From a virus, in the UHGV virus genome UHGV-0217160: a stretch of DNA of 15,042 bases, one strand, 5' to 3'. The notes below the pieces were generated by a model, which did no database searches, had not been told where the DNA came from, and saw only the letters and a list, made by a program, of their open reading frames with translations. How positions within the stretch are numbered: position 1 is the first letter of the stretch; each line of letters opens with the position of its first letter. Position numbers and translations under genes: made by a program. Below, in pieces: positions 5,303 to 14,584 of the stretch.

Positions 5303-5324
5303 GGCCGCCTGTGCGGCTTTTTTT
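5303..5324 (+). terminator. D-E intergenic GC hairpin followed by a T7 run (terminator/attenuator-like)
   Basis: GGCCGC-CTGT-GCGGC stem-loop at 5303-5317 followed by TTTTTTT (5318-5324), between the D stop and the E start. Confidence 0.4.
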
Positions 5325-5337
5325 ACGGGATTTTTTT

Positions 5338-5613
5338 ATGTCGATGTACACAACCGCCCAGCTGCTGGCGGCAAATGAGCAGAAATTTAAGTTTGATCCG
5401 CTGTTTCTGCGTCTCTTTTTCCGTGAGAGCTATCCCTTCACTACGGAGAAAGTCTATCTCTCACAAATTCCGGGACTGGTAAACATGGCGCTGTACGTTT
5501 CGCCGATTGTTTCCGGTGAGGTTATCCGTTCCCGTGGCGGCTCCACCTCTGAATTTACGCCGGGATATGTCAAACCCAAGCACTTAGCATGGCTTTCTGA
5601 GGCTTTCGTGTAG
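5338..5613 (+). pseudogene. E: Major capsid protein E (lambda-type), truncated after codon 82 and fused to 9 unrelated codons
   Basis: MSMYTTAQLLAANEQKFKFDPLFLRLFFRESYPFTTEKVYLSQIPGLVNMALYVSPIVSGEVIRSRGGSTSEFTPGYVKPKH matches the lambda E N-terminus, then LAWLSEAFV-stop. Full-length E is ~341 aa, so about 75% of the gene is missing. The break coincides with the start of the island. Confidence 0.85.
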
Positions 5614-6982: not shown

Positions 6983-7207
6983 ATGAAAAAAATGGCAATT
7001 GTTGATAAAAAGGGTCTGGAGTACAATCCTAACATCGATCGTATGATCCGTGAGAAAGAATGTCGGGAGCTAACCACTCTTGCGAACAGCACACGCTGGA
7101 AGCTGGAGAAGGAAGGAAAATTTCCTAAGCGGATCAAGATTGGTGCTACAGCTGTGGCGTATCGCCTCTCTGAAATTCAGGCATGGATTAAAGGGGATTG
7201 GAAGTAA
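6983..7207 (+). CDS. alpA: AlpA-family (Phage_AlpA / MerR-like HTH) transcriptional regulator
   Basis: 74 aa; RELTTLANSTRWKLEKEGKFPKRIKIGATAVAYRLSEIQAWI matches the AlpA helix-turn-helix-wing signature. It lies 1 nt after the int stop, the conserved int-alpA arrangement of P4-like elements and Gram-negative PICIs. Confidence 0.85.
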   Translation: MKKMAIVDKKGLEYNPNIDRMIREKECRELTTLANSTRWKLEKEGKFPKRIKIGATAVAYRLSEIQAWIKGDWK

Positions 7208-7239
7208 TTTTAATTATTTTTTATACGGTAGGAATAAGA

Positions 7240-7995
7240 GTGGACTATATAAGCGAAGTTGTTTTGGATAAAGTTGTGAATGAACTTGCAACAAGGGCTA
7301 AAAATGCAAGGAGAGCAAGGGCTCTAATAGGTATGACTATAATTTCTGTGGCCGTAATTCTTTCTGCGTTTATTTCCTATAGACTAACTGATGACTTTTC
7401 ATTAAAAGGGTTTAGAAGTGGTTTGTTCGCTTCTACAATTTCAAATGGATTCAATGATACATCGGGAATACGTGAAGCGTTTAATCTGGAACTATTAAAT
7501 GTATTTCCAGAAACATCGAAGAGTGATTCGATTGCCAAGTTGTTTTCTCAATTAGATGGAGGAACTCCTCAGTCTAGTGGTGAAAATGAAGTATTAAAAA
7601 AAATTACTAAGGAAGAGAAAGACGAAGCTCTTTCTTATGTAAGTAAATTGGTTGATTACTATGTCAAAGTTGCCGCAGCTGAAAATGGACGTCCGGTTAA
7701 CAAAACAGATAATACATATAGTAGTTTGATTAGTTCATTAGCTCTTTCAGCAGGTGCTGTCGGATTTGTATTATATATCTTACAGATAGCAGTTAGTTTT
7801 GTGCGTTATTACTCTAGACTGGCTGAGTTATATGACTCTCAACGGACTGCGTTAATTGCATCTGACGGCAATGTCGAAACGGCAAAAATACTTATGGATA
7901 TATTATCAAATGATCATGTCGGTTTGGGAAAAGAACCAACTACTTTATATGGAAAAGCATTAGATGTAATTGGCGAGGTTGCAAAGTCAAAATAA
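7240..7995 (+). CDS. Hypothetical membrane protein with two predicted transmembrane helices (AT-rich cargo gene)
   Basis: Open frame 7198-7995. Likely start is GTG 7240 preceded by TAGGA (a TTG at 7198 is the alternative). Hydrophobic segments MTIISVAVILSAFISY and LISSLALSAGAVGFVLYILQIAVSFV flank a ~115-aa hydrophilic loop. Hand-counted sample lines are about 35% G+C against about 60% in the lambda-type genes. No recognisable family. Confidence 0.6.
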   Translation: MDYISEVVLDKVVNELATRAKNARRARALIGMTIISVAVILSAFISYRLTDDFSLKGFRSGLFASTISNGFNDTSGIREAFNLELLNVFPETSKSDSIAKLFSQLDGGTPQSSGENEVLKKITKEEKDEALSYVSKLVDYYVKVAAAENGRPVNKTDNTYSSLISSLALSAGAVGFVLYILQIAVSFVRYYSRLAELYDSQRTALIASDGNVETAKILMDILSNDHVGLGKEPTTLYGKALDVIGEVAKSK

Positions 7996-8019
7996 TACTT
8001 GCGAAGGGGGGCGTTTTTG

Positions 8020-8220
8020 ATGTCCCTCCTGTATATTTATCGAGAGGAAAAATATAATTTATTTGGTTGTGGTTTTACTTTTAAATATATGGTGGACCAT
8101 TATTGCTCAAGGTTTTTATACATGGCTTGTAACTTAAAGACTTTCTGTCAACCCCGTACTTTGAAATCTGCACGGTCGCATTCCGTAATTGTTCTTTGTC
8201 GTTCTTGCGAGGTGTGGTGA
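8020..8220 (+). CDS. Possible small Cys-rich ORF (66 aa) downstream of the 2-TM gene
   Basis: ATG at 8020 preceded by AAGGGGGG (spacing 8). Product MSLLYIYREEKYNLFGCGFTFKYMVDHYCSRFLYMACNLKTFCQPRTLKSARSHSVIVLCRSCEVW has 6 Cys. It lies in AT-rich DNA where chance ORFs are easy, so low confidence. Confidence 0.2.
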   Translation: MSLLYIYREEKYNLFGCGFTFKYMVDHYCSRFLYMACNLKTFCQPRTLKSARSHSVIVLCRSCEVW

Positions 8221-8268
8221 TACATCTCTCATGTCAGTTGTTTTTTGACCGTGGGAACATAAAACAAA

Positions 8269-8287
8269 GGCGACAAGAATAGTCGCC
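8269..8287 (-). terminator. Candidate intrinsic terminator for the leftward RHH-SWIM operon
   Basis: GGCGAC-aagaata-GTCGCC stem-loop. On the minus strand it is followed by a U-rich run (complement of 8255-8268 AACATAAAACAAAG), about 70 nt beyond the SWIM gene stop. Confidence 0.35.
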
Positions 8288-8356
8288 AGTGGCATAACAC
8301 TAAACTTAAGCGTATTCAGAATACCAAGTTGTAGGCTGATGGAAAATAGAATTAGT

Positions 8357-8713
8357 TCAATATTTAGGTGGTTCTACAAGAGCGTTTATCATTGCTCTCA
8401 AATTATCTCGGACACTTATCCAAGTCTGTTCTGCTCGTTCTAATTCATCAGTGTACAGCTTTAATGTTTTATCTATGCCATATGTGGCTATTAAATTTAT
8501 AGCTTCTTGTAACTTTTCGGGGTTATTCCTTCTTGGGGGCGTAAATATACCTCGGATTTTTCCGGTGATTAAAGCTTTACGGTGTCTGCATAGAATACCT
8601 TTACTTCCAGCAGGACAATTACAAGTCATGATTAGCGAGCCAGAATCGTTTGATACAGTGACTATGTATACATCCAAACTACTGCTACTTGTTGCGAAGA
8701 ATTCGTATTTCAT
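8357..8713 (-). CDS. SWIM-type zinc-finger protein (hypothetical)
   Basis: 118 aa; contains C-N-C-PAGSKGIL-C-R-H (CxC-x8-CxH), the SWIM zinc-finger signature. Strong SD (AAGGAG, 8 nt upstream on the minus strand). Sits 27 nt downstream of the RHH gene in the same orientation. Confidence 0.6.
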   Translation of the reverse strand: MKYEFFATSSSSLDVYIVTVSNDSGSLIMTCNCPAGSKGILCRHRKALITGKIRGIFTPPRRNNPEKLQEAINLIATYGIDKTLKLYTDELERAEQTWISVRDNLRAMINALVEPPKY

Positions 8714-8740
8714 GTTTTAGCTCCTTGAATTCAGGTATTC

Positions 8741-8935
8741 TTATCCTTTTGGTTCAATTCCGCGACGTAGCAGCTCTTTGCGCCCTAATTCTTTAAGCCA
8801 GTTGGCTAGGCTTACCCCATCGTTACTGGCTTCGTTATCAAACTGCTCCTTCAATTCAGGAACTATGCGCATATGGAACGGTGGGGCCTTTCCTGTGCCT
8901 TTTGGTTTTTTATCGCGCTTAATAATCGTTGACAT
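8741..8935 (-). CDS. Arc/Mnt-like ribbon-helix-helix DNA-binding protein (candidate repressor)
   Basis: 64 aa; PPFHMRIVPELKEQF followed by ASNDGVSLANWLKELGRKEL parallels the Arc repressor beta-strand and helix A (PQFNLRWPREVLDLV...ENGRSVNSEIYQRV). Its start codon abuts the palindromic operators. Confidence 0.65.
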   Translation of the reverse strand: MSTIIKRDKKPKGTGKAPPFHMRIVPELKEQFDNEASNDGVSLANWLKELGRKELLRRGIEPKG

Positions 8936-8991
8936 GTGTACACCTATAGCGTTATGTTTTTATTCGATAGGTGTACACCTTAACACGTGTG
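8934..8991. promoter_or_regulatory. Divergent control region with two copies of a 12-bp palindromic operator (core GTGTACAC) plus an ACACGTGT palindrome
   Basis: ATGTGTACACCT at 8934-8945 (one mismatch from perfect) and the perfect palindrome AGGTGTACACCT at 8969-8980, centres 35 bp apart; ACACGTGT at 8984-8991. Located between the leftward RHH gene and the rightward small-ORF/primase operon. Confidence 0.5.
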
Positions 8992-9074
8992 CATTTAAAA
9001 ACGCAACGCCCCGCAGTGCGGGAACACATGCAGGGCGTCTAACCACCAACGATAGCAACAGTATCGAGGTAGCT

Positions 9075-9278
9075 ATGAGAAATCATACCACACACCCGCA
9101 AGGGCGGGACTCGCACAACCTGAATAAATACATCTGGCGTTTTATCGCCCTGAGCACCGCACAACCACGCGTAATACACATCGAGGCCGCCAGCGAACAG
9201 GAAGCCCGACTGCAATCCCCAACTGGCTACGTGATGATATTCGCCGCCCGTATTCGTCAGGAGGTGTGCCATGAATGA
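9075..9278 (+). CDS. Hypothetical protein (68 aa), first gene of the primase operon
   Basis: ATG 9075 with GAGG 6 nt upstream. The stop overlaps the next start (ATGAATGA). The track's 8778-9278 ORF is a 5' over-extension running antisense through the RHH gene. Confidence 0.45.
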   Translation: MRNHTTHPQGRDSHNLNKYIWRFIALSTAQPRVIHIEAASEQEARLQSPTGYVMIFAARIRQEVCHE

Positions 9279-9497: not shown

Positions 9498-9785
9498 ATG
9501 AAAAATAAATTTTCTGGCTTTATTGCCAGCGGTCAAACTCATTCAAAAATCAGCCTTGGGGATATTTTCAAAGATAGCTATGGCTATCGGGTAAAGATTA
9601 TTTCGGTTGATGATCGCCGTGTCTCTTATTTGCGTGATGGTTATGATTTTGAATGTGTTATGCCGCGTCAGCAGTTCGAAAGAGATTTCATTCTGGTAAA
9701 AAATTGCAAGACAGATAATCAGAGGCGTTCCGCAGGCTATATCCGCAAAATTCGGGCAATGTTAGTTGCCGGAGGTAACAAATGA
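9498..9785 (+). CDS. Hypothetical protein (95 aa)
   Basis: ATG 9498 with GGAGA upstream; stop overlaps the primase start (ATGA). No family recognised. Confidence 0.55.
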   Translation: MKNKFSGFIASGQTHSKISLGDIFKDSYGYRVKIISVDDRRVSYLRDGYDFECVMPRQQFERDFILVKNCKTDNQRRSAGYIRKIRAMLVAGGNK

Positions 9786-11602
9786 AACGTGCTCCGAACT
9801 TAAAATACCAACCGCGCGACAAAATGACAGAAGTCATCATTTTTGCTGGCAGTGATGCCTGGAGCCATGCAAAAGAATGGAATGAATGGGCGGGTAAGCA
9901 TATTGCAGCAGATGATACACCACCAGTAATTCTGGGTACGGAACAACTGGAAAACCTGGATGATATGCAAATTATCGATGAAGGCCGTCATTATGTGCGT
10001 GTTTATCGTGCCGGAAAGATCGCAGAGAAAAATCTGACGAAGGTTGCGACATTACTTGCTATTGCAGGCGTAAAGGAAGCACGTTGTTACCGTAGCTTTG
10101 TTGATCGAGAGCCTGAAAACTGGACTCCGCGCCTTGTCGGCCTAAAAGCTGAAGCGGAGCATGGGGAAAGTCTGGTGATTGAACTGCCAGTGAAGAAGGC
10201 TGAGCGCAAAAATGACGAGCGTGCTTCATCTTTGGCGTTGAATCAGATGGGGGCCAGCCAGCGCGGTGAAGTTCTCCTTGCACATTACGGCGGCGAACTG
10301 GCAATCAATGCCGACTCTGACACCGTTCATCATTACAACGGCGTTGTATGGGAGCCGGTTCAGGATAAAGAGTTACAGCGTGCTATGGCGCAGATTTTCA
10401 TTGATGCGGAGATCAGCTATTCGCAGAACGCCATTAAATCGGCGGTAGATACCATGAAGTTAAGTTTGCCTGTAATGGGGAATACAGCCCGTAACCTGAT
10501 TGGATTCAGTAACGGGGTATTTGATACCAGAACTGGTAATTTTCGGGAGCATAACAAAAACGACTGGTTGTTAATTGCCAGTGAATTACCTTTCAGCCCA
10601 CCAGCAGAGGGGGAAACGCTGGCAACACATGCGCCGAATTTCTGGAAGTGGTTGCGCCGTTCGGTGGCTGAGAATGACCGCAAGGCAGATCGCGTACTGG
10701 CGGCATTATTCATGGTGCTGGCGAACCGGTACGACTGGCAGTTATTCATTGAGGTAACAGGGCCGGGGGGAAGTGGTAAAAGTGTGATGGCGGAGATTTG
10801 CACCATGCTGGCGGGTAAGGCTAATACAGTATCAGCAAGCATGAAGGCGCTGGAAGATGCAAGGGAACGTGCGTTAGTGGTTGGCTTTTCGCTGATTATC
10901 ATGCCGGATATGACCCGCTACGCTGGTGATGGGGCAGGGATTAAGGCCATTACAGGCGGTGACAAGGTGGCAATTGACCCGAAACACAAAGCCCCCTATT
11001 CAACGCGTATTCCGGCAGTAGTGCTGGCGGTTAACAATAACGCCATGTCATTCAGTGACCGCAGCGGGGGGATCTCACGTCGTCGGGTGATATTCAATTT
11101 TTCGGAAGTTGTACCGGAGAACGAACGCGATTCGATGCTGGCGGAAAAAATAGAAGGTGAGCTGGCGGTAGTGATTCGTCATCTGCTTACACGGTTTGCT
11201 GATCAGGACGAAGCCAGACGCCTGTTATATGAGCAGCAGAAATCTGAAGAAGCACTGGCGATAAAGCGAGAGGGGGATTCGCTGGTGGACTTCTGCGGCT
11301 ATCTCATGGCATCGGTAATGTGTGATGGCCTGTTAGTGGGTAATGCTGAAATTGTGCCATTCAGCCCACGCAGGTATCTCTATCATGCCTATCTGGCTTA
11401 TATGAGGGCACATGGGTTTGGTAAACCTGTAACACTGACGCGCTTCGGTAAAGATATGCCGGGGGCAATGGCGGAATATGGCAGGGAGTATATGAAACGG
11501 AAAACGAAGCACGGTTTGCGTTCAAACGTGACACTGACGGAGGAATCAGAAGACTGGATGCCATCATGTGTATCGGTCACTAATGACGATAGCAAAAATT
11601 AA
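9782..11602 (+). CDS. Phage/plasmid primase-helicase, P4-family (D5/SF3-type NTPase domain)
   Basis: 606 aa; Walker A GPGGSGKSV and a Walker-B-like hydrophobic stretch ending in D (LIIMPDM). Size and position (after int/alpA, immediately before the iteron ori) match the pri/rep gene of P4-like elements and PICIs. Confidence 0.85.
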   Translation: MKRAPNLKYQPRDKMTEVIIFAGSDAWSHAKEWNEWAGKHIAADDTPPVILGTEQLENLDDMQIIDEGRHYVRVYRAGKIAEKNLTKVATLLAIAGVKEARCYRSFVDREPENWTPRLVGLKAEAEHGESLVIELPVKKAERKNDERASSLALNQMGASQRGEVLLAHYGGELAINADSDTVHHYNGVVWEPVQDKELQRAMAQIFIDAEISYSQNAIKSAVDTMKLSLPVMGNTARNLIGFSNGVFDTRTGNFREHNKNDWLLIASELPFSPPAEGETLATHAPNFWKWLRRSVAENDRKADRVLAALFMVLANRYDWQLFIEVTGPGGSGKSVMAEICTMLAGKANTVSASMKALEDARERALVVGFSLIIMPDMTRYAGDGAGIKAITGGDKVAIDPKHKAPYSTRIPAVVLAVNNNAMSFSDRSGGISRRRVIFNFSEVVPENERDSMLAEKIEGELAVVIRHLLTRFADQDEARRLLYEQQKSEEALAIKREGDSLVDFCGYLMASVMCDGLLVGNAEIVPFSPRRYLYHAYLAYMRAHGFGKPVTLTRFGKDMPGAMAEYGREYMKRKTKHGLRSNVTLTEESEDWMPSCVSVTNDDSKN

Positions 11603-12797: not shown

Positions 12798-13838
12798 ATG
12801 GTTGATTTATATTCGCCTACTCAGCTTGTACAGGTGGTTAATGCTGTAGATGTACAAAAACAACTAAATGCGTTGTTTACCAGTTTGTTTTTTACTCGCT
12901 CGGTAATGTTTGAATCGCGCGATATTATTCTTGATACAATCGACGATCCAAATATCCCAATTGCAGCATTTTGTTCTCCTATGGTGGGTAGTAAAGTTTC
13001 ACGTGACGAAGGGTACGAATCAAAAACAATTCGTCCAGGCTATATGAAGCCGAAAAGCAGCATTGATCCAAATAAGTTAGCTGTGCGCCCTGCTGGTGTA
13101 TCACCTGAGCAATACAATGCTTTTGGGGCGCGTAATATTAAAGTTAAACAGGCGATTGTAAATCAAGCTAAAGCTATTCGTGCACGTATTGAATGGCTTG
13201 CCGTTCAGGCAATCACAACGGGGAAAAATATCATTGAGGGCGATGGTATTGAACGTTATGAGCTGGACTGGAATATTAAACCACAAAATATCATCACTCA
13301 GTCTGGCGGTGCTGAGTGGTCAGGTAAGGATAAAGAAACTTTTGATCCAAATGATGATATTGAGAGCTACGCAGAATTTAGTGAGGGCGTCACTAATATC
13401 ATCATTATGGGCGGTAATGTATGGAAGAAATACCGTTCATTCAGAGCGATAAAAGAGGCTCTGGATACCCGTCGTGGTTCTAATTCCGAACTGGAAACGG
13501 CCCTTAAAGACCTTGGTGATTCGGTGAGTTTTAAAGGATATATGGGCGATGTTGCGATTGTTGTTTACAGCGGGCGTTATACCGACGAGGACGGAACTGA
13601 AAAACATTTCCTTGATCCTGATTTGATGGTGCTTGGCAATACGGCTCTTCAGGGGATTGTCGCCTATGGCGGTATTCAGGATCCGGAGCTAATCCGAATG
13701 GGGCTGACTAAAGCCGAACTTGCACCGAAAAACTATATTGTGCCTGGTGATCCTGCTATTGAATATGTGCAGACACATTCAGCACCACAGCCAATACCGG
13801 CCCGCATCAATCGTTTTGTTACCGTTCGCATTGGCTAA
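12798..13838 (+). CDS. Major capsid protein, lambda gpE-family (HK97-fold), diverged island-encoded paralog
   Basis: 346 aa from ATG 12798 (AAGAGGA upstream), which aligns with the lambda E start. Alignable end to end with lambda E: MVDLYSPTQLV / MSMYTTAQLL; GYMKPK / GYVKPK; ITQSGGAEWSGKDKETFDPNDDIESYA / ITQSGGTEWSKRDKSTYDPTDDIEAYA; DTRRGSNSELETALKDLG identical over 14 of 18; GDVAIVVYSG identical. The track ORF from 12585 is a 5' over-extension through the hairpin. Confidence 0.88.
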   Translation: MVDLYSPTQLVQVVNAVDVQKQLNALFTSLFFTRSVMFESRDIILDTIDDPNIPIAAFCSPMVGSKVSRDEGYESKTIRPGYMKPKSSIDPNKLAVRPAGVSPEQYNAFGARNIKVKQAIVNQAKAIRARIEWLAVQAITTGKNIIEGDGIERYELDWNIKPQNIITQSGGAEWSGKDKETFDPNDDIESYAEFSEGVTNIIIMGGNVWKKYRSFRAIKEALDTRRGSNSELETALKDLGDSVSFKGYMGDVAIVVYSGRYTDEDGTEKHFLDPDLMVLGNTALQGIVAYGGIQDPELIRMGLTKAELAPKNYIVPGDPAIEYVQTHSAPQPIPARINRFVTVRIG

Positions 13839-13847
13839 GGGGGAGCA

Positions 13848-14189
13848 ATGGCTACTCATTACACTGAACTCATGGCTGGCACTGAAGCACTGGTGACTAC
13901 GCTGGGGATATTTTCAGCTAATAAAGGGGTAATTCCTGCATTTACGCCACTGATGCAGGAAGATGCAACAGGTGCACTGGTAGTATGGGATGGTTCGAGC
14001 GTAGGTAAAGCGGTTTATGTTTCCGCTGTACAAATCGACACCGCGAAAAAAACACAGGCTCAGGTCTATAAGACAGGTGTCTTAAATGTTGATGCTCTGA
14101 ACTGGCCTGAGTCTGTTAAAGAACTGTCAGTAAAGGTTGCAGCGTTTGTTGGCTCAGGTATTTCTGTTCAGCCGCTGGCTCGTGTGTAA
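13848..14189 (+). CDS. Head decoration protein, lambda gpD-family, diverged island-encoded paralog
   Basis: 113 aa. AFTPLMQEDATGALVVWDGSSVGKAV...VYKTGVLNVDALNWPE...AAFVGSGISV aligns with lambda [27 protein letters not shown]...[16 protein letters not shown]...[11 protein letters not shown]-rich SD AAGGGGGAG. Immediately downstream of the E-like gene, the same D/E pairing as lambda but in reverse order. Confidence 0.8.
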   Translation: MATHYTELMAGTEALVTTLGIFSANKGVIPAFTPLMQEDATGALVVWDGSSVGKAVYVSAVQIDTAKKTQAQVYKTGVLNVDALNWPESVKELSVKVAAFVGSGISVQPLARV

Positions 14190-14200
14190 AGGGGGATACA

Positions 14201-14584
14201 ATGCAGAATGATTACAATGACCTTAAGCCAATTGCCGAAATGATGTACCCGAATCAAGCTGTAGAGGAATTAAAAGCTATCGCTGACAAAATGTGTTTAA
14301 GCGAGCGCCTTGTTGATATGAATCAGGTGATGGAAATTACAACCCTGAGTCGTCGTACACTGCTAAACCTTGAGGCTAGTGGAGAGTTCCCGGAGCGTGT
14401 GCAGGTTACGGAAGGGCGTAAGGCCTGGTATTTAAGTGAAGTGATCGACTGGATAAATAATATTCCTCGCGCTTCTGAATATTGCCGCGTACCTGTCCCA
14501 AAAAAGCCAGATGCGGCGCTATGCCTCAAGATTGAGCGTGTACGCCGCAATGCACGGGATGGTCGCTATAAGCTGATTGGTTGA
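14201..14584 (+). CDS. AlpA/MerR-type winged-HTH DNA-binding protein encoded immediately upstream of cos (candidate packaging specificity or regulatory factor)
   Basis: 127 aa; MEITTLSRRTLLNLEASGEFPERVQVTEGRKAWYLSEVIDWI matches the AlpA HTH-wing pattern and parallels the Nu1 N-terminal HTH (LADIFGASIRTIQNWQEQGMPVLRGGGKGNEVLYDSAAVIKWY). SD AAAGGGGGA, like the D-like gene. Stop is 27 nt before cosQ-type sequence. Confidence 0.7.
   Translation: MQNDYNDLKPIAEMMYPNQAVEELKAIADKMCLSERLVDMNQVMEITTLSRRTLLNLEASGEFPERVQVTEGRKAWYLSEVIDWINNIPRASEYCRVPVPKKPDAALCLKIERVRRNARDGRYKLIG

What the first reader, a model, noticed from the sequence alone, without database searches (positions are those of the whole stretch)
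8269..8991. Leftward Arc-like RHH + SWIM zinc-finger operon controlled by paired GTGTACAC palindromes: candidate island master switch or toxin-antitoxin-like pair
An Arc/Mnt-like RHH protein (64 aa) and a SWIM zinc-finger protein (118 aa) form a two-gene leftward operon ending at a hairpin terminator. Its control region faces the rightward primase operon and contains two 12-bp palindromes 35 bp apart, one overlapping the RHH ribosome-binding site, plus a third palindrome (ACACGTGT). This is the layout of a repressor/operator switch (cf. P22 Arc/Mnt, SaPI Stl) that could hold the replication operon off until a helper signal arrives. Alternatively RHH plus a downstream partner is the classic antitoxin-toxin gene order. 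Co-occurrence of a SWIM finger with an RHH regulator is unusual.
Basis: partly seen in the sequence, partly recalled or inferred. Interest (0 to 1): 0.6.

Follow-up and report, generated by a model that had tools for sequence, protein, structure and literature searches.

The report
Satellite repressor switch with SWIM passenger gene
A small Arc-like repressor, its two matching DNA binding sites and an antisense RNA most likely keep the replication genes of a phage-parasitising island in E. coli switched off, and the zinc-finger (SWIM) gene behind the repressor looks like a passenger, not a toxin.

Summary

The window is an E. coli helper-embedded PICI satellite, inserted in the major capsid gene of a lambdoid prophage. 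This class is already published.

The 64-aa protein is an Arc-like ribbon-helix-helix protein. In 63 distinct control regions from Enterobacterales the two-site layout is kept, while the central 4 bp of both sites change together. The changes track RHH residues 19 and 21, which align with the Arc base-contact residues Q9 and N11.

The sites sit inside a conserved rightward promoter (TTGACA made by RHH codons 1-3, then TAnnnT). They also cover the -10 of the leftward promoter. So the repressor/operator reading is well supported, by computation only.

A second layer was not in the finding. A conserved SymR-like antisense RNA (about 9076 to 8997, minus strand) covers the ribosome-binding site of the first rightward gene (Icd-like here, SymE toxin in relatives).

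The toxin-antitoxin reading is not supported:
- The RHH lacks SWIM in 71 of 71 loci from other species.
- SWIM homologues follow other RHH types or a CI-like repressor, or stand alone.

The function of the SWIM protein remains unknown.

The parts
8741..8935 (-). Arc-like ribbon-helix-helix (RHH) repressor gene, 64 aa. The basic N-terminal arm is residues 1-19, the beta-strand 20-25, and the helices 26-38 and 43-57.
   Evidence: ORF. AF2 model with pLDDT 79.5. Foldseek top hits are Arc, CopG and RHH antitoxins, with probability up to 1.0. PHROG 228 'Arc-like repressor', E 3.7e-5. The family profile's best PDB hit is Arc, E 0.002.
8357..8713 (-). Small SWIM zinc-finger protein gene, 118 aa, co-oriented with the RHH gene and 27 nt downstream. 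It looks like a passenger of the repressor transcript.
   Evidence: Pfam SWIM above cut-off. Invariant CxC...CxH motif. AF2 model with pLDDT 80.7: three strands, a zinc knuckle and a long C-terminal helix. PHROG 13130, unknown function.
8259..8287 (-). Intrinsic-terminator-like hairpin plus T-run that ends the leftward unit.
8936..8947 (.). Proximal operator (core GTGTACAC, 8936-8943). It lies in the spacer of P_R, touches the RHH start codon and contains its Shine-Dalgarno sequence.
   Evidence: Same position in relatives.
8967..8980 (.). Distal operator (12-bp palindrome AGGTGTACACCT, 8969-8980). It lies at about +2 to +15 of P_R and overlaps the -10 and start site of P_L.
   Evidence: Conserved 35-bp spacing in 38 loci.
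8929..8958 (+). Rightward promoter P_R: -35 TTGACA (8929-8934, made by RHH codons 1-3), 18-nt spacer, -10 TATGTT (8953-8958).
   Evidence: Consensus scan. Column conservation. TTGACA is exact in 53 of 63 control regions. RHH codon 2 is TCA in 55 of 66 loci. TAnnnT at a 16-19 nt spacer occurs in 39 of 63.
8977..8985 (-). Leftward promoter P_L, extended -10 TGtTAAGGT. A weak -35-like TTGCGT lies at 9004-8999.
   Evidence: Conserved TGnTAnnnT in 41 of 63 control regions. The assignment is inferred; the start site is not mapped.
8997..9076 (-). SymR-like cis-antisense RNA (about 80 nt). Hairpin 1 carries the anti-Shine-Dalgarno sequence. It is followed by a GGUUAG linker, a terminator hairpin and a U-run. 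It is complementary to the 5' UTR, ribosome-binding site and start codon of the Icd-like gene.
   Evidence: Fold energy -38.5 kcal/mol, z = -5.2. Compensatory changes in hairpin 1. A 10-15 bp hairpin is present in all 37 distinct relatives, starting right after the linker in 36, with 3-6 pair types per rank and many U-G pairs on this strand. Weak Rfam SymR match, 22 bits.
9082..9090 (-). Promoter of the antisense RNA (TGgTATGAT), embedded in codons 3-6 of the Icd-like gene.
   Evidence: A conserved TAnnAT lies at a fixed distance from the divergent start codon in 51 loci, even though the encoded proteins are unrelated.
9075..9278 (+). Icd-like gene, first gene of the rightward operon (followed by orf74, DUF4222 and the D5-type primase at 9782-11602).
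   Evidence: NCBIfam phage_ICD_like, E 1.1e-19. Annotation. Pfam hits on downstream genes.
8983..8990 (.). ACACGTGT palindrome. It overlaps the TG of the extended -10 and is probably incidental.
   Evidence: Not conserved as a palindrome in relatives. Broken to ACACATGT in a 99%-identical relative.

Best explanation
The 64-aa protein is an Arc-like RHH repressor of a helper-embedded PICI satellite. One dimer probably binds each AGGT-NNNN-ACCT palindrome, with its beta-ribbon over the central 4 bp.

The proximal site lies between the -35 and -10 of a near-consensus rightward promoter, P_R. This promoter drives the Icd-like gene, orf74, DUF4222 and the primase. The distal site covers the start of P_R and the -10/+1 of the face-to-face leftward promoter, P_L. 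Bound repressor would therefore hold the replication operon off and limit its own synthesis.

A SymR-like antisense RNA adds a second brake. It is made from a promoter inside the first codons of the Icd-like gene, and would block translation of that gene.

The SWIM gene is a passenger of the repressor transcript. It would be expressed while the island is quiescent. It is not a cognate toxin. Its role is unknown; exclusion or defence, or helper sensing, are guesses.

What is shown here: the fold, the sites, the covariation, the conserved promoter positions and the RNA structure. What is inferred: DNA binding, transcription start sites, the direction of regulation, and how repression is lifted.
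For: Fold and homology:
- The AF2 model and Foldseek hits are Arc, CopG and RHH antitoxins.
- The family profile's best PDB hit is Arc, E 0.002. It aligns RHH residues 19, 21 and 23 with Arc Q9, N11 and R13. That these are Arc's base-contact residues is from my own knowledge.

Architecture:
- In 38 loci the distal site sits at the same 35-bp spacing.

Covariation:
- P19/H21 goes with GTGTACAC.
- Q19/R21 goes with GTGACCAC.
- T19/Q21 goes with GTACGTAC.
- A19/Q21 goes with GTACAYAC.
- S or N at 21 goes with GTMTRGAC.
- Pairs of proteins sharing residues 19 and 21 differ at 0.3-0.5 of 8 operator positions. This holds even at 40-55% identity elsewhere in the protein.
- Pairs differing at those residues differ at 2.3-3.0 positions, even at 75-90% identity elsewhere.

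Promoters:
- TTGACA is exact in 53 of 63 control regions. Ser codon 2 is TCA in 55 of 66 loci.
- The only conserved spacer positions match TAnnnT.
- TGnTAnnnT for P_L occurs in 41 of 63.

Antisense RNA. The first gene in many relatives is a SymE toxin (Pfam E 8e-17).

SWIM as a passenger. In other relatives the same slot holds defence genes: AriA-like, PDC-M01A and cll.
Against: - No binding, transcript or expression data were available.
- The -35 of P_L is weak, and all start sites are inferred.
- RHH and operators are physically linked, so some co-divergence is expected by descent. The identity-binned test reduces this concern but does not remove it.
- When the operator core is asymmetric, the two copies are usually mirror images of each other. 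A simple one-dimer-per-site model does not require this.
- Sequence matches to RHH families are weak: Pfam HicB is below cut-off, and Foldseek E-values are 0.1 or higher because the protein is small.
- Only 2 of the 3 palindromes are conserved.
- The signal that would lift repression is unknown.
Confidence: 0.7

Rival explanations
1. RHH and SWIM form a type II toxin-antitoxin pair: RHH is the antitoxin and autorepressor, SWIM is the toxin.
For: The gene order and the 27-nt spacing resemble antitoxin-toxin operons. PGAP labels the RHH 'HicB family antitoxin'. SWIM homologues at 33-100% identity often follow an RHH.
Against: - The RHH lacks SWIM in 71 of 71 loci from other species, and in most E. 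coli genomes that carry it. Several loci have no room for any partner gene.
- The RHH has the same length with or without SWIM, and ends 5 residues after helix 2.
- SWIM follows a CI-like S24 repressor in one phage, and stands alone in others.
- Pfam HicB is below cut-off and there is no HicA.
- There is no toxin-like fold or family hit for SWIM.
Confidence: 0.04
2. The paired repeats act as a nucleic-acid hairpin, not as protein operators. In a leftward RNA that contains both arms, a 12-bp stem would hide the RHH Shine-Dalgarno sequence. Alternatively the DNA forms a cruciform.
For: The arms are a perfect 12-nt inverted repeat. The proximal arm holds the Shine-Dalgarno sequence. In about seven lineages with asymmetric cores the two copies stay mutually complementary.
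Against: - The core sequence tracks the beta-strand residues of the adjacent protein. A hairpin would not require this.
- The GTGACCAC group keeps direct copies, not complementary ones.
- The conserved P_L -10 places the leftward start inside the distal arm, and P_R starts between the arms. Neither main transcript would carry both arms.
- Most cores are palindromic in themselves.
Confidence: 0.08
3. SWIM is a functional partner of the repressor module. It could be a co-repressor, a sensor of a helper-phage signal, or a protector against anti-repressors. On this view it is not an unrelated passenger.
For: In 7 of about 12 lineages the SWIM gene lies directly behind a repressor gene, including five RHH types and one CI-like repressor. 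The SWIM domain and a long C-terminal helix suggest DNA or protein binding and oligomerisation.
Against: - It associates with repressors of unrelated folds and specificities, which argues against a specific protein contact.
- It also occurs alone.
- Most RHH switches work without it.
- The same slot holds defence genes in relatives.
Confidence: 0.15
4. The palindromes are bound by another factor, such as AlpA or a helper-phage repressor. The RHH would then have another role, for example an excision or replication accessory protein.
For: The island encodes two AlpA-like proteins. Published work names AlpA as the activator of Gram-negative PICIs (PMC6092414).
Against: The operator type follows the RHH beta-strand across genera. 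The sites are fused to the RHH start codon in every lineage. GTGTACAC occurs nowhere else in the window.
Confidence: 0.05

Closest known systems
P22 immI Arc repressor (and Mnt)
   Same: Both are small RHH proteins, and Arc is the best PDB sequence and fold match. In both cases the operator lies between promoter elements. One repressor acts on two overlapping, oppositely oriented promoters (for Arc: PMC2724298 introduction).
   Different: Arc binds as a tetramer to one 21-bp operator with two TAGA boxes. Here there are two separate 12-bp palindromes 35 bp apart, probably with one dimer each. The target is a satellite replication operon, not an antirepressor gene. Sequence identity is only about 23%.
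pMV158 CopG control of the initiator gene repB (the antisense RNA II part is from my own knowledge)
   Same: An RHH repressor binds a symmetric element overlapping the promoter of the replication genes (PMC2724298). In pMV158 an antisense RNA also limits repB translation, so control is dual: a protein plus an antisense RNA.
   Different: copG is co-transcribed with repB from the same promoter. Here the RHH gene is transcribed in the opposite direction, and the antisense RNA targets the first small gene (Icd-like or SymE-like). pMV158 is a plasmid; this element is an integrated satellite.
SaPI / Gram-positive PICI master repressor Stl (Rpr)
   Same: The position and proposed role match: a repressor gene facing the replication module, holding the island quiescent (PMC6092414).
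   Different: Stl proteins are larger and, from my own knowledge, helix-turn-helix proteins, unrelated in fold to an RHH. Relief by a helper-phage protein is shown for Stl and is unknown here. [quoted passage not shown]
E. coli symE/symR type I toxin-antitoxin locus
   Same: A cis-antisense RNA has its promoter embedded in the first codons of the target ORF. Control is multi-level: a transcriptional repressor plus the antisense RNA (PMC1891008). In many relatives the target gene is a true SymE_toxin. The Rfam SymR model aligns end to end.
   Different: The Rfam score is 22 bits against a cut-off of 61, and no relative tested reaches the cut-off. In this window the target is Icd-like, not SymE. 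The transcriptional repressor would be an RHH, not LexA.
Helper-embedded PICI (11capE class; Tommasini, Mageeney and Williams 2023)
   Same: Same element class: about 11 kb, with int, AlpA, primase and its own capsid gene, inserted at site E_Phage_cap_E_80 with att core AACCCAAGCA.
   Different: That paper lists '-HicB' and '-DUF3950' in its gene strings and discusses C4/isrK-type immunity RNAs in the 'Bro zone'. I found no mention there of an RHH/operator switch, a SymR-like RNA or SWIM.
Passenger genes in repressor operons of temperate phages, such as lambda rexAB and HK022 nun behind cI (own knowledge)
   Same: The gene sits directly behind the maintenance repressor and would be expressed in the quiescent state. 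One SWIM homologue lies 9 nt behind a CI-like gene.
   Different: There is no sequence or fold similarity to those proteins. An exclusion function for SWIM is a guess.

Membership tests
Ribbon-helix-helix (Arc/MetJ/CopG) transcription factors | Beta-alpha-alpha fold. | tested here: met
   The AF2 model shows an extended segment at 20-25 and helices at 26-38 and 43-57. Foldseek hits are almost all RHH proteins; Arc 1myl has TM 0.84 and probability 1.0.
Ribbon-helix-helix (Arc/MetJ/CopG) transcription factors | Sequence similarity to a characterised member. | tested here: met
   Profile against PDB: Arc, E 0.002. PHROG 228 Arc-like repressor, E 3.7e-5. Both are weak, as expected for 45-residue domains.
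Ribbon-helix-helix (Arc/MetJ/CopG) transcription factors | Symmetric operator overlapping the regulated promoter, read by beta-strand side chains. | tested here: met
   The palindromes lie within P_R and P_L. The operator core covaries with residues 19 and 21, which align with Arc Q9 and N11. Physical binding was not tested.
Ribbon-helix-helix (Arc/MetJ/CopG) transcription factors | Dimerisation and DNA binding in vitro. | not testable with these tools
   Needs protein work.
HicB antitoxin (HicAB type II TA), the PGAP label | Pfam HicB at or above the gathering score. | tested here: not met
   15.5 bits against a cut-off of 21. No NCBIfam hit above cut-off.
HicB antitoxin (HicAB type II TA), the PGAP label | Adjacent HicA toxin gene. 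| tested here: not met
   The neighbours are SWIM and Icd-like; there is no HicA.
Type II toxin-antitoxin pair (RHH antitoxin plus downstream toxin) | Conserved pairing of the two genes. | tested here: not met
   The RHH lacks SWIM in 71 of 71 loci. SWIM occurs with other repressor types or alone.
Type II toxin-antitoxin pair (RHH antitoxin plus downstream toxin) | Antitoxin carries a toxin-neutralising extension beyond the DNA-binding domain. | tested here: not met
   Only 5 residues follow helix 2. The length is the same in loci with and without SWIM.
Type II toxin-antitoxin pair (RHH antitoxin plus downstream toxin) | Toxicity of the downstream protein, relieved by the upstream one. | not testable with these tools
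   Needs expression tests.
SWIM zinc finger (PF04434) | CxCxnCxH signature and a Pfam score above cut-off. | tested here: met
   24.1 bits against a cut-off of 19.6. C31, C33, C42 and H44 are invariant.
SymR/SymE type I toxin-antitoxin | Rfam SymR at or above the gathering score. | tested here: not met
   22 bits against 61 in the window. No hit in 12 related loci.
SymR/SymE type I toxin-antitoxin | Antisense promoter embedded in the 5' codons of the target ORF, with the RNA covering its ribosome-binding site and start codon. | tested here: met
   A conserved -10 lies 10 nt from the start codon in 51 loci with unrelated first genes. Structure and strand-specific G-U pairs support the RNA. The transcript itself was not observed.
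SymR/SymE type I toxin-antitoxin | Target gene encodes a SymE_toxin. | tested here: not met
   In the window the gene is Icd-like. In many relatives it is SymE_toxin, E 8e-17.
Helper-embedded PICI (HE-PICI) | Integration inside a prophage late gene, with int, AlpA and primase in the island. | tested here: met
   The capsid E gene is split. The att core AACCCAAGCA lies at 5573-5582, as in PMC10111431. Int, AlpA and a D5 primase are present.
PICI master repressor (Stl/Rpr class, defined by function) | Repression lifted by a helper-phage protein. | not testable with these tools
   No data. Only the position facing the replication module is met.

The most novel reading that the evidence does not exclude
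The RHH-operator pair and the SymR-like antisense RNA together form the maintenance ('immunity') switch of a large group of Gram-negative PICI-type satellites. The literature had left the existence of such a repressor open. On this reading the switch has diversified into at least five specificity types, set by two beta-strand residues. The ~110-aa SWIM proteins would be a new family of quiescent-state accessory factors (exclusion or helper sensing) that repeatedly settle behind repressor genes of satellites and temperate phages.
Probability: 0.35. Interest if true: 0.7.

Novelty: new variant of a known kind. Interest (0 to 1): 0.58.

Why it matters
[quoted passage not shown] This locus offers a concrete, testable candidate for the missing brake on replication.

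Three features make it useful:
- It suggests a simple recognition code. Residues 19 and 21 appear to set the central 4 bp of the operator. Point mutants could test this directly.
- It links the chromosomal symE/symR type of control to the head of satellite replication operons.
- It flags two things worth screening for anti-phage functions: an uncharacterised small SWIM family, and the slot behind the repressor gene, which holds known defence genes in relatives.

It also shows that the database label 'HicB family antitoxin' for this protein is probably wrong.

Tried and rejected
- Rfam at gathering thresholds found nothing in the window. In relaxed mode it gave only a 22-bit SymR match. SymR was not found in 12 related loci. 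I therefore call the RNA SymR-like, not a family member.
- C4/isrK immunity RNAs, reported for some PICIs, were not found in the window.
- PADLOC gave only a weak hit, PDC-S62, E 4.9e-5.
- The diverse SWIM alignment A3 was too divergent for a locus search, so I used the narrower A4.
- RNAalifold on the MAFFT alignment missed the terminator stem because of indels. I replaced it with per-sequence folds anchored on the conserved linker.
- Literature searches for SWIM with prophage or satellite, and for RHH with PICI, found nothing relevant.
- A nucleotide search for a link to E. coli symE found only the RHH part, in 15 genomes. The idea that K-12 symER descends from this cassette is therefore left open.
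- ACACGTGT as a third operator was rejected because it is not conserved.
- The 104-aa extended RHH ORF seen in many relatives was rejected as a mechanical artefact. The MST start, its Shine-Dalgarno sequence and the operator layout are conserved.
Full report
**What is in the window.** The window matches several E. coli chromosomes at 100% identity. In the annotated record, an island of about 11 kb lies inside a lambdoid prophage. The island carries int, alpA, two unknown ORFs, the SWIM gene, the RHH gene, an Icd-like gene, orf74, DUF4222, a D5-type primase, SSB, its own major capsid and decoration genes, a second AlpA-like gene, a terS pseudogene and DUF2971. It splits the prophage's major capsid gene: the N-terminal fragment is at window 5311-5613, and the C-terminal fragment follows the island. 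The att core AACCCAAGCA is at 5573-5582. This is the published 'helper-embedded PICI' class, site E_Phage_cap_E_80 (PMC10111431). The element as a whole is therefore known. That paper lists '-HicB' and '-DUF3950' in its gene strings, but I found no mention of SWIM or of an RHH switch.

**Check of the observation.** Both ORFs exist. The 118-aa protein passes Pfam SWIM, and its four zinc ligands are invariant in 22 diverse homologues. A terminator-like hairpin follows the SWIM gene. GTGTACAC occurs exactly twice in the window, at 8936 and 8971, against 0.11 expected. The two copies extend to a perfect 12-nt inverted repeat. The proximal copy abuts the RHH start codon and holds its Shine-Dalgarno sequence. 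There are three small corrections:
- Only the distal site is a perfect 12-bp palindrome.
- The first rightward gene is Icd-like (NCBIfam E 1.1e-19), not the primase.
- ACACGTGT is not conserved, and is broken in a 99%-identical relative.

**The 64-aa protein is Arc-like.** Pfam gives only a sub-threshold HicB match. PHROGs gives 'Arc-like repressor', E 3.7e-5. The AF2 model (pLDDT 79.5) has a disordered basic arm, an extended segment and two helices. Its Foldseek neighbours are Arc, CopG, AmrZ and RHH antitoxins, with Arc first. A profile of 26 homologues finds Arc as the best PDB sequence (E 0.002). The alignment places RHH residues 19, 21 and 23 on Arc Q9, N11 and R13. From established knowledge, these are the base-contacting residues of Arc. 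The PGAP name 'HicB family antitoxin' is not supported: the score is below cut-off, there is no HicB N-terminal domain, and there is no HicA.

**Comparative evidence that the RHH reads the palindromes.** A genome scan returned 71 loci with RHH homologues across Enterobacterales. Aligning the upstream regions on the start codon shows the same layout almost everywhere. One site ends at the ATG, and a second lies 35 bp upstream; this spacing holds in 38 loci. The outer boxes AGGT/ACCT stay the same, but the central 4 bp differ between lineages, and both sites of a locus change together. The core type follows the beta-strand residues:
- P19/H21 with GTGTACAC.
- Q19/R21 with GTGACCAC.
- T19/Q21 with GTACGTAC.
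- A19/Q21 with GTACAYAC.
- S or N at 21 with GTCCATAC or GTCTATAC.

Gene and site are linked, so I controlled for descent. Within every bin of identity over the rest of the protein, pairs sharing residues 19 and 21 differ at 0.3-0.5 of 8 core positions. Pairs differing at those residues differ at 2.3-3.0 positions. Pairs only 40-55% identical elsewhere still share the operator if they share the two residues. Independent SWIM-linked loci fit the same rule: L075 has FQIRI with GTACGTAC.

**Promoter context.** A consensus scan finds TTGACA-18-TATGTT on the plus strand at 8929-8958. The -35 box is the reverse complement of RHH codons 1-3 (ATG TCA ACn). Across 63 distinct control regions, TTGACA is exact in 53. 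Serine codon 2 is TCA in 55 of 66 loci. The only conserved positions in the otherwise free inter-site spacer are those of a TAnnnT -10 box. The proximal operator therefore lies in the P_R spacer, and the distal one sits at about +2 to +15. On the other strand, a conserved TGnTAnnnT (8985-8977) ends in the first GT of the distal core. It is present in 41 of 63 regions. I read this as the extended -10 of the leftward promoter P_L. The two promoters would be face to face, with start sites a few bases apart, and both would be covered by bound repressor. All start sites are inferred.

**A second control layer that the finding did not include.** On the minus strand, 9076 to about 8997 folds into two hairpins followed by a U-run (-38.5 kcal/mol, z = -5.2).
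- Hairpin 1 shows compensatory changes in 5 of 8 predicted pairs.
- All 37 distinct relatives have a 10-15 bp second hairpin. In 36 of them it starts right after a conserved GGUUAG linker. Each stem position has 3-6 pair types, and there are many U-G pairs. These would be A-C mismatches on the other strand.
- A conserved TAnnAT lies 10 nt beyond the start codon of the divergent gene, inside its codons 4-6 (codons 3-6 with the TG in the window). This holds in loci whose first genes are unrelated (Icd-like, SymE-like, or a 176-aa protein). It explains their shared N-terminal peptides.

The SymE-like genes are true SymE_toxin members (Pfam E 8e-17). Rfam SymR aligns end to end to the window, but at only 22 bits. 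In E. coli symE/symR, the antisense promoter is also embedded in the target ORF, and control combines a transcriptional repressor (LexA) with the RNA (PMC1891008). I therefore call this RNA SymR-like. Membership in the Rfam family is not met.

**The SWIM gene.** Close homologues are few. An exhaustive search finds 109 cluster representatives of about 110 aa with the same motif. The model has three strands, a zinc knuckle and a long C-terminal helix. It has no meaningful neighbour in PDB. Context is the informative part:
- 100% identity: behind the H-type RHH.
- 74% identity: behind a Q-type RHH with GTACGTAC operators, in PICIs at other integration sites.
- 54% and 35% identity: behind DUF3950-type RHHs.
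- 33% identity: behind a 56-aa RHH with GTAATTAC operators, in another capsid-embedded island.
- 40% identity: 9 nt behind a CI-like HTH plus S24 peptidase repressor, in a 42-kb phage contig.
- Elsewhere: a lone gene on the opposite strand in a lambdoid early region and in a plasmid-like contig.

Conversely, none of the 71 RHH loci from other species has SWIM. Only 46 of 233 matching E. coli genomes carry both genes. In other relatives the slot behind the RHH holds an AriA-like ATPase, PDC-M01A or a cll-type protein. This pattern does not fit a cognate toxin-antitoxin pair. It fits a passenger gene that exploits the transcript made in the quiescent state. It also supports, independently, the view that the RHH occupies the 'repressor' position. 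What the SWIM protein does is not known. Exclusion or defence, or a link to helper sensing, are guesses.

**What remains unexplained.** When the core is not itself palindromic, the two copies are usually mirror images: about seven lineages, including the DUF3950-type locus. They are direct copies in the GTGACCAC group. This could reflect an overall dyad of the 47-bp region, for example two dimers bridged across a loop. It could also reflect a hairpin that hides the RHH Shine-Dalgarno sequence in read-through transcripts. The covariation with the protein, and the predicted start sites, make the hairpin the weaker reading, but it is not excluded. The signal that lifts repression is unknown. The published induction data for this island class show late excision, after the composite has replicated.

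**Comparison and verdict.** The closest mechanistic relatives are:
- P22 Arc: an RHH acting on two overlapping opposed promoters.
- pMV158 CopG: an RHH controlling the initiator promoter. From my own knowledge, an antisense RNA also acts there.
- SaPI Stl: same position and role, unrelated fold.
- symE/symR.

The switch is a new arrangement of known parts, in an element class for which a repressor had not been identified in the papers I could read. The repressor reading is well supported, by computation only. The toxin-antitoxin reading is rejected. The SWIM association is real but general.

Noticed in passing
window 5311-5613 and 5573-5582; L001 11139-11384 and 22331-23119: The island is inserted in the major capsid gene of a lambdoid prophage, with att core AACCCAAGCA. 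It matches the published HE-PICI '11capE' class (PMC10111431).
   Followed up: yes
window 8997-9090 (-): A conserved SymR-like antisense RNA, with its promoter embedded in codons 3-6 of the Icd-like gene. Unrelated first genes in relatives share N-terminal peptides because of this embedded promoter.
   Followed up: yes
L053, L051, L058, L009, L031 (just downstream of the RHH gene): In relatives, the slot directly behind the RHH gene holds anti-phage candidates: an AriA-like ATPase of 663 aa, PDC-M01A of 547 aa, and a cll-type protein. It behaves like a cargo hotspot.
   Followed up: partly
L033 4000-7000 (Citrobacter) and similar tRNA-Sec-adjacent loci: The cassette of RHH, operators, antisense RNA and SymE toxin also occurs next to tRNA-Sec, with Hcp, DUF1493 and an autotransporter, and with no satellite genes nearby. 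An RHH-only match lies in EPEC E2348/69 and O55:H7 genomes.
   Followed up: partly
window 12798-14584: The satellite carries its own lambda-E-type major capsid gene, a decoration-protein gene and a second AlpA-like gene. The terS beyond the window is a pseudogene with an internal stop in the annotated record.
   Followed up: no
L001 21289-22047 (-), just beyond the window: The DUF2971 protein at the island end matches the PADLOC defence candidate PDC-S31 (E 7.6e-26).
   Followed up: no
window 7200-8800: This block has low GC (0.34-0.39, against 0.45-0.55 in the rest of the island and about 0.58 in the prophage). It holds two unknown ORFs (265 aa and 73 aa), SWIM and the RHH gene, which suggests recently acquired cargo.
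   Followed up: no
window 8741-8935; L079-L108: In many near-identical relatives, the mechanical ORF for the RHH runs to 104 aa through the operators. Some database proteins (95-111 aa) carry this probable false extension. The PGAP label 'HicB family antitoxin' also looks wrong.
   Followed up: partly
L002 8828-8896: Rfam int-alpA RNA (RF02996) is found in a related Morganella island, but not at gathering score in this window.
   Followed up: no
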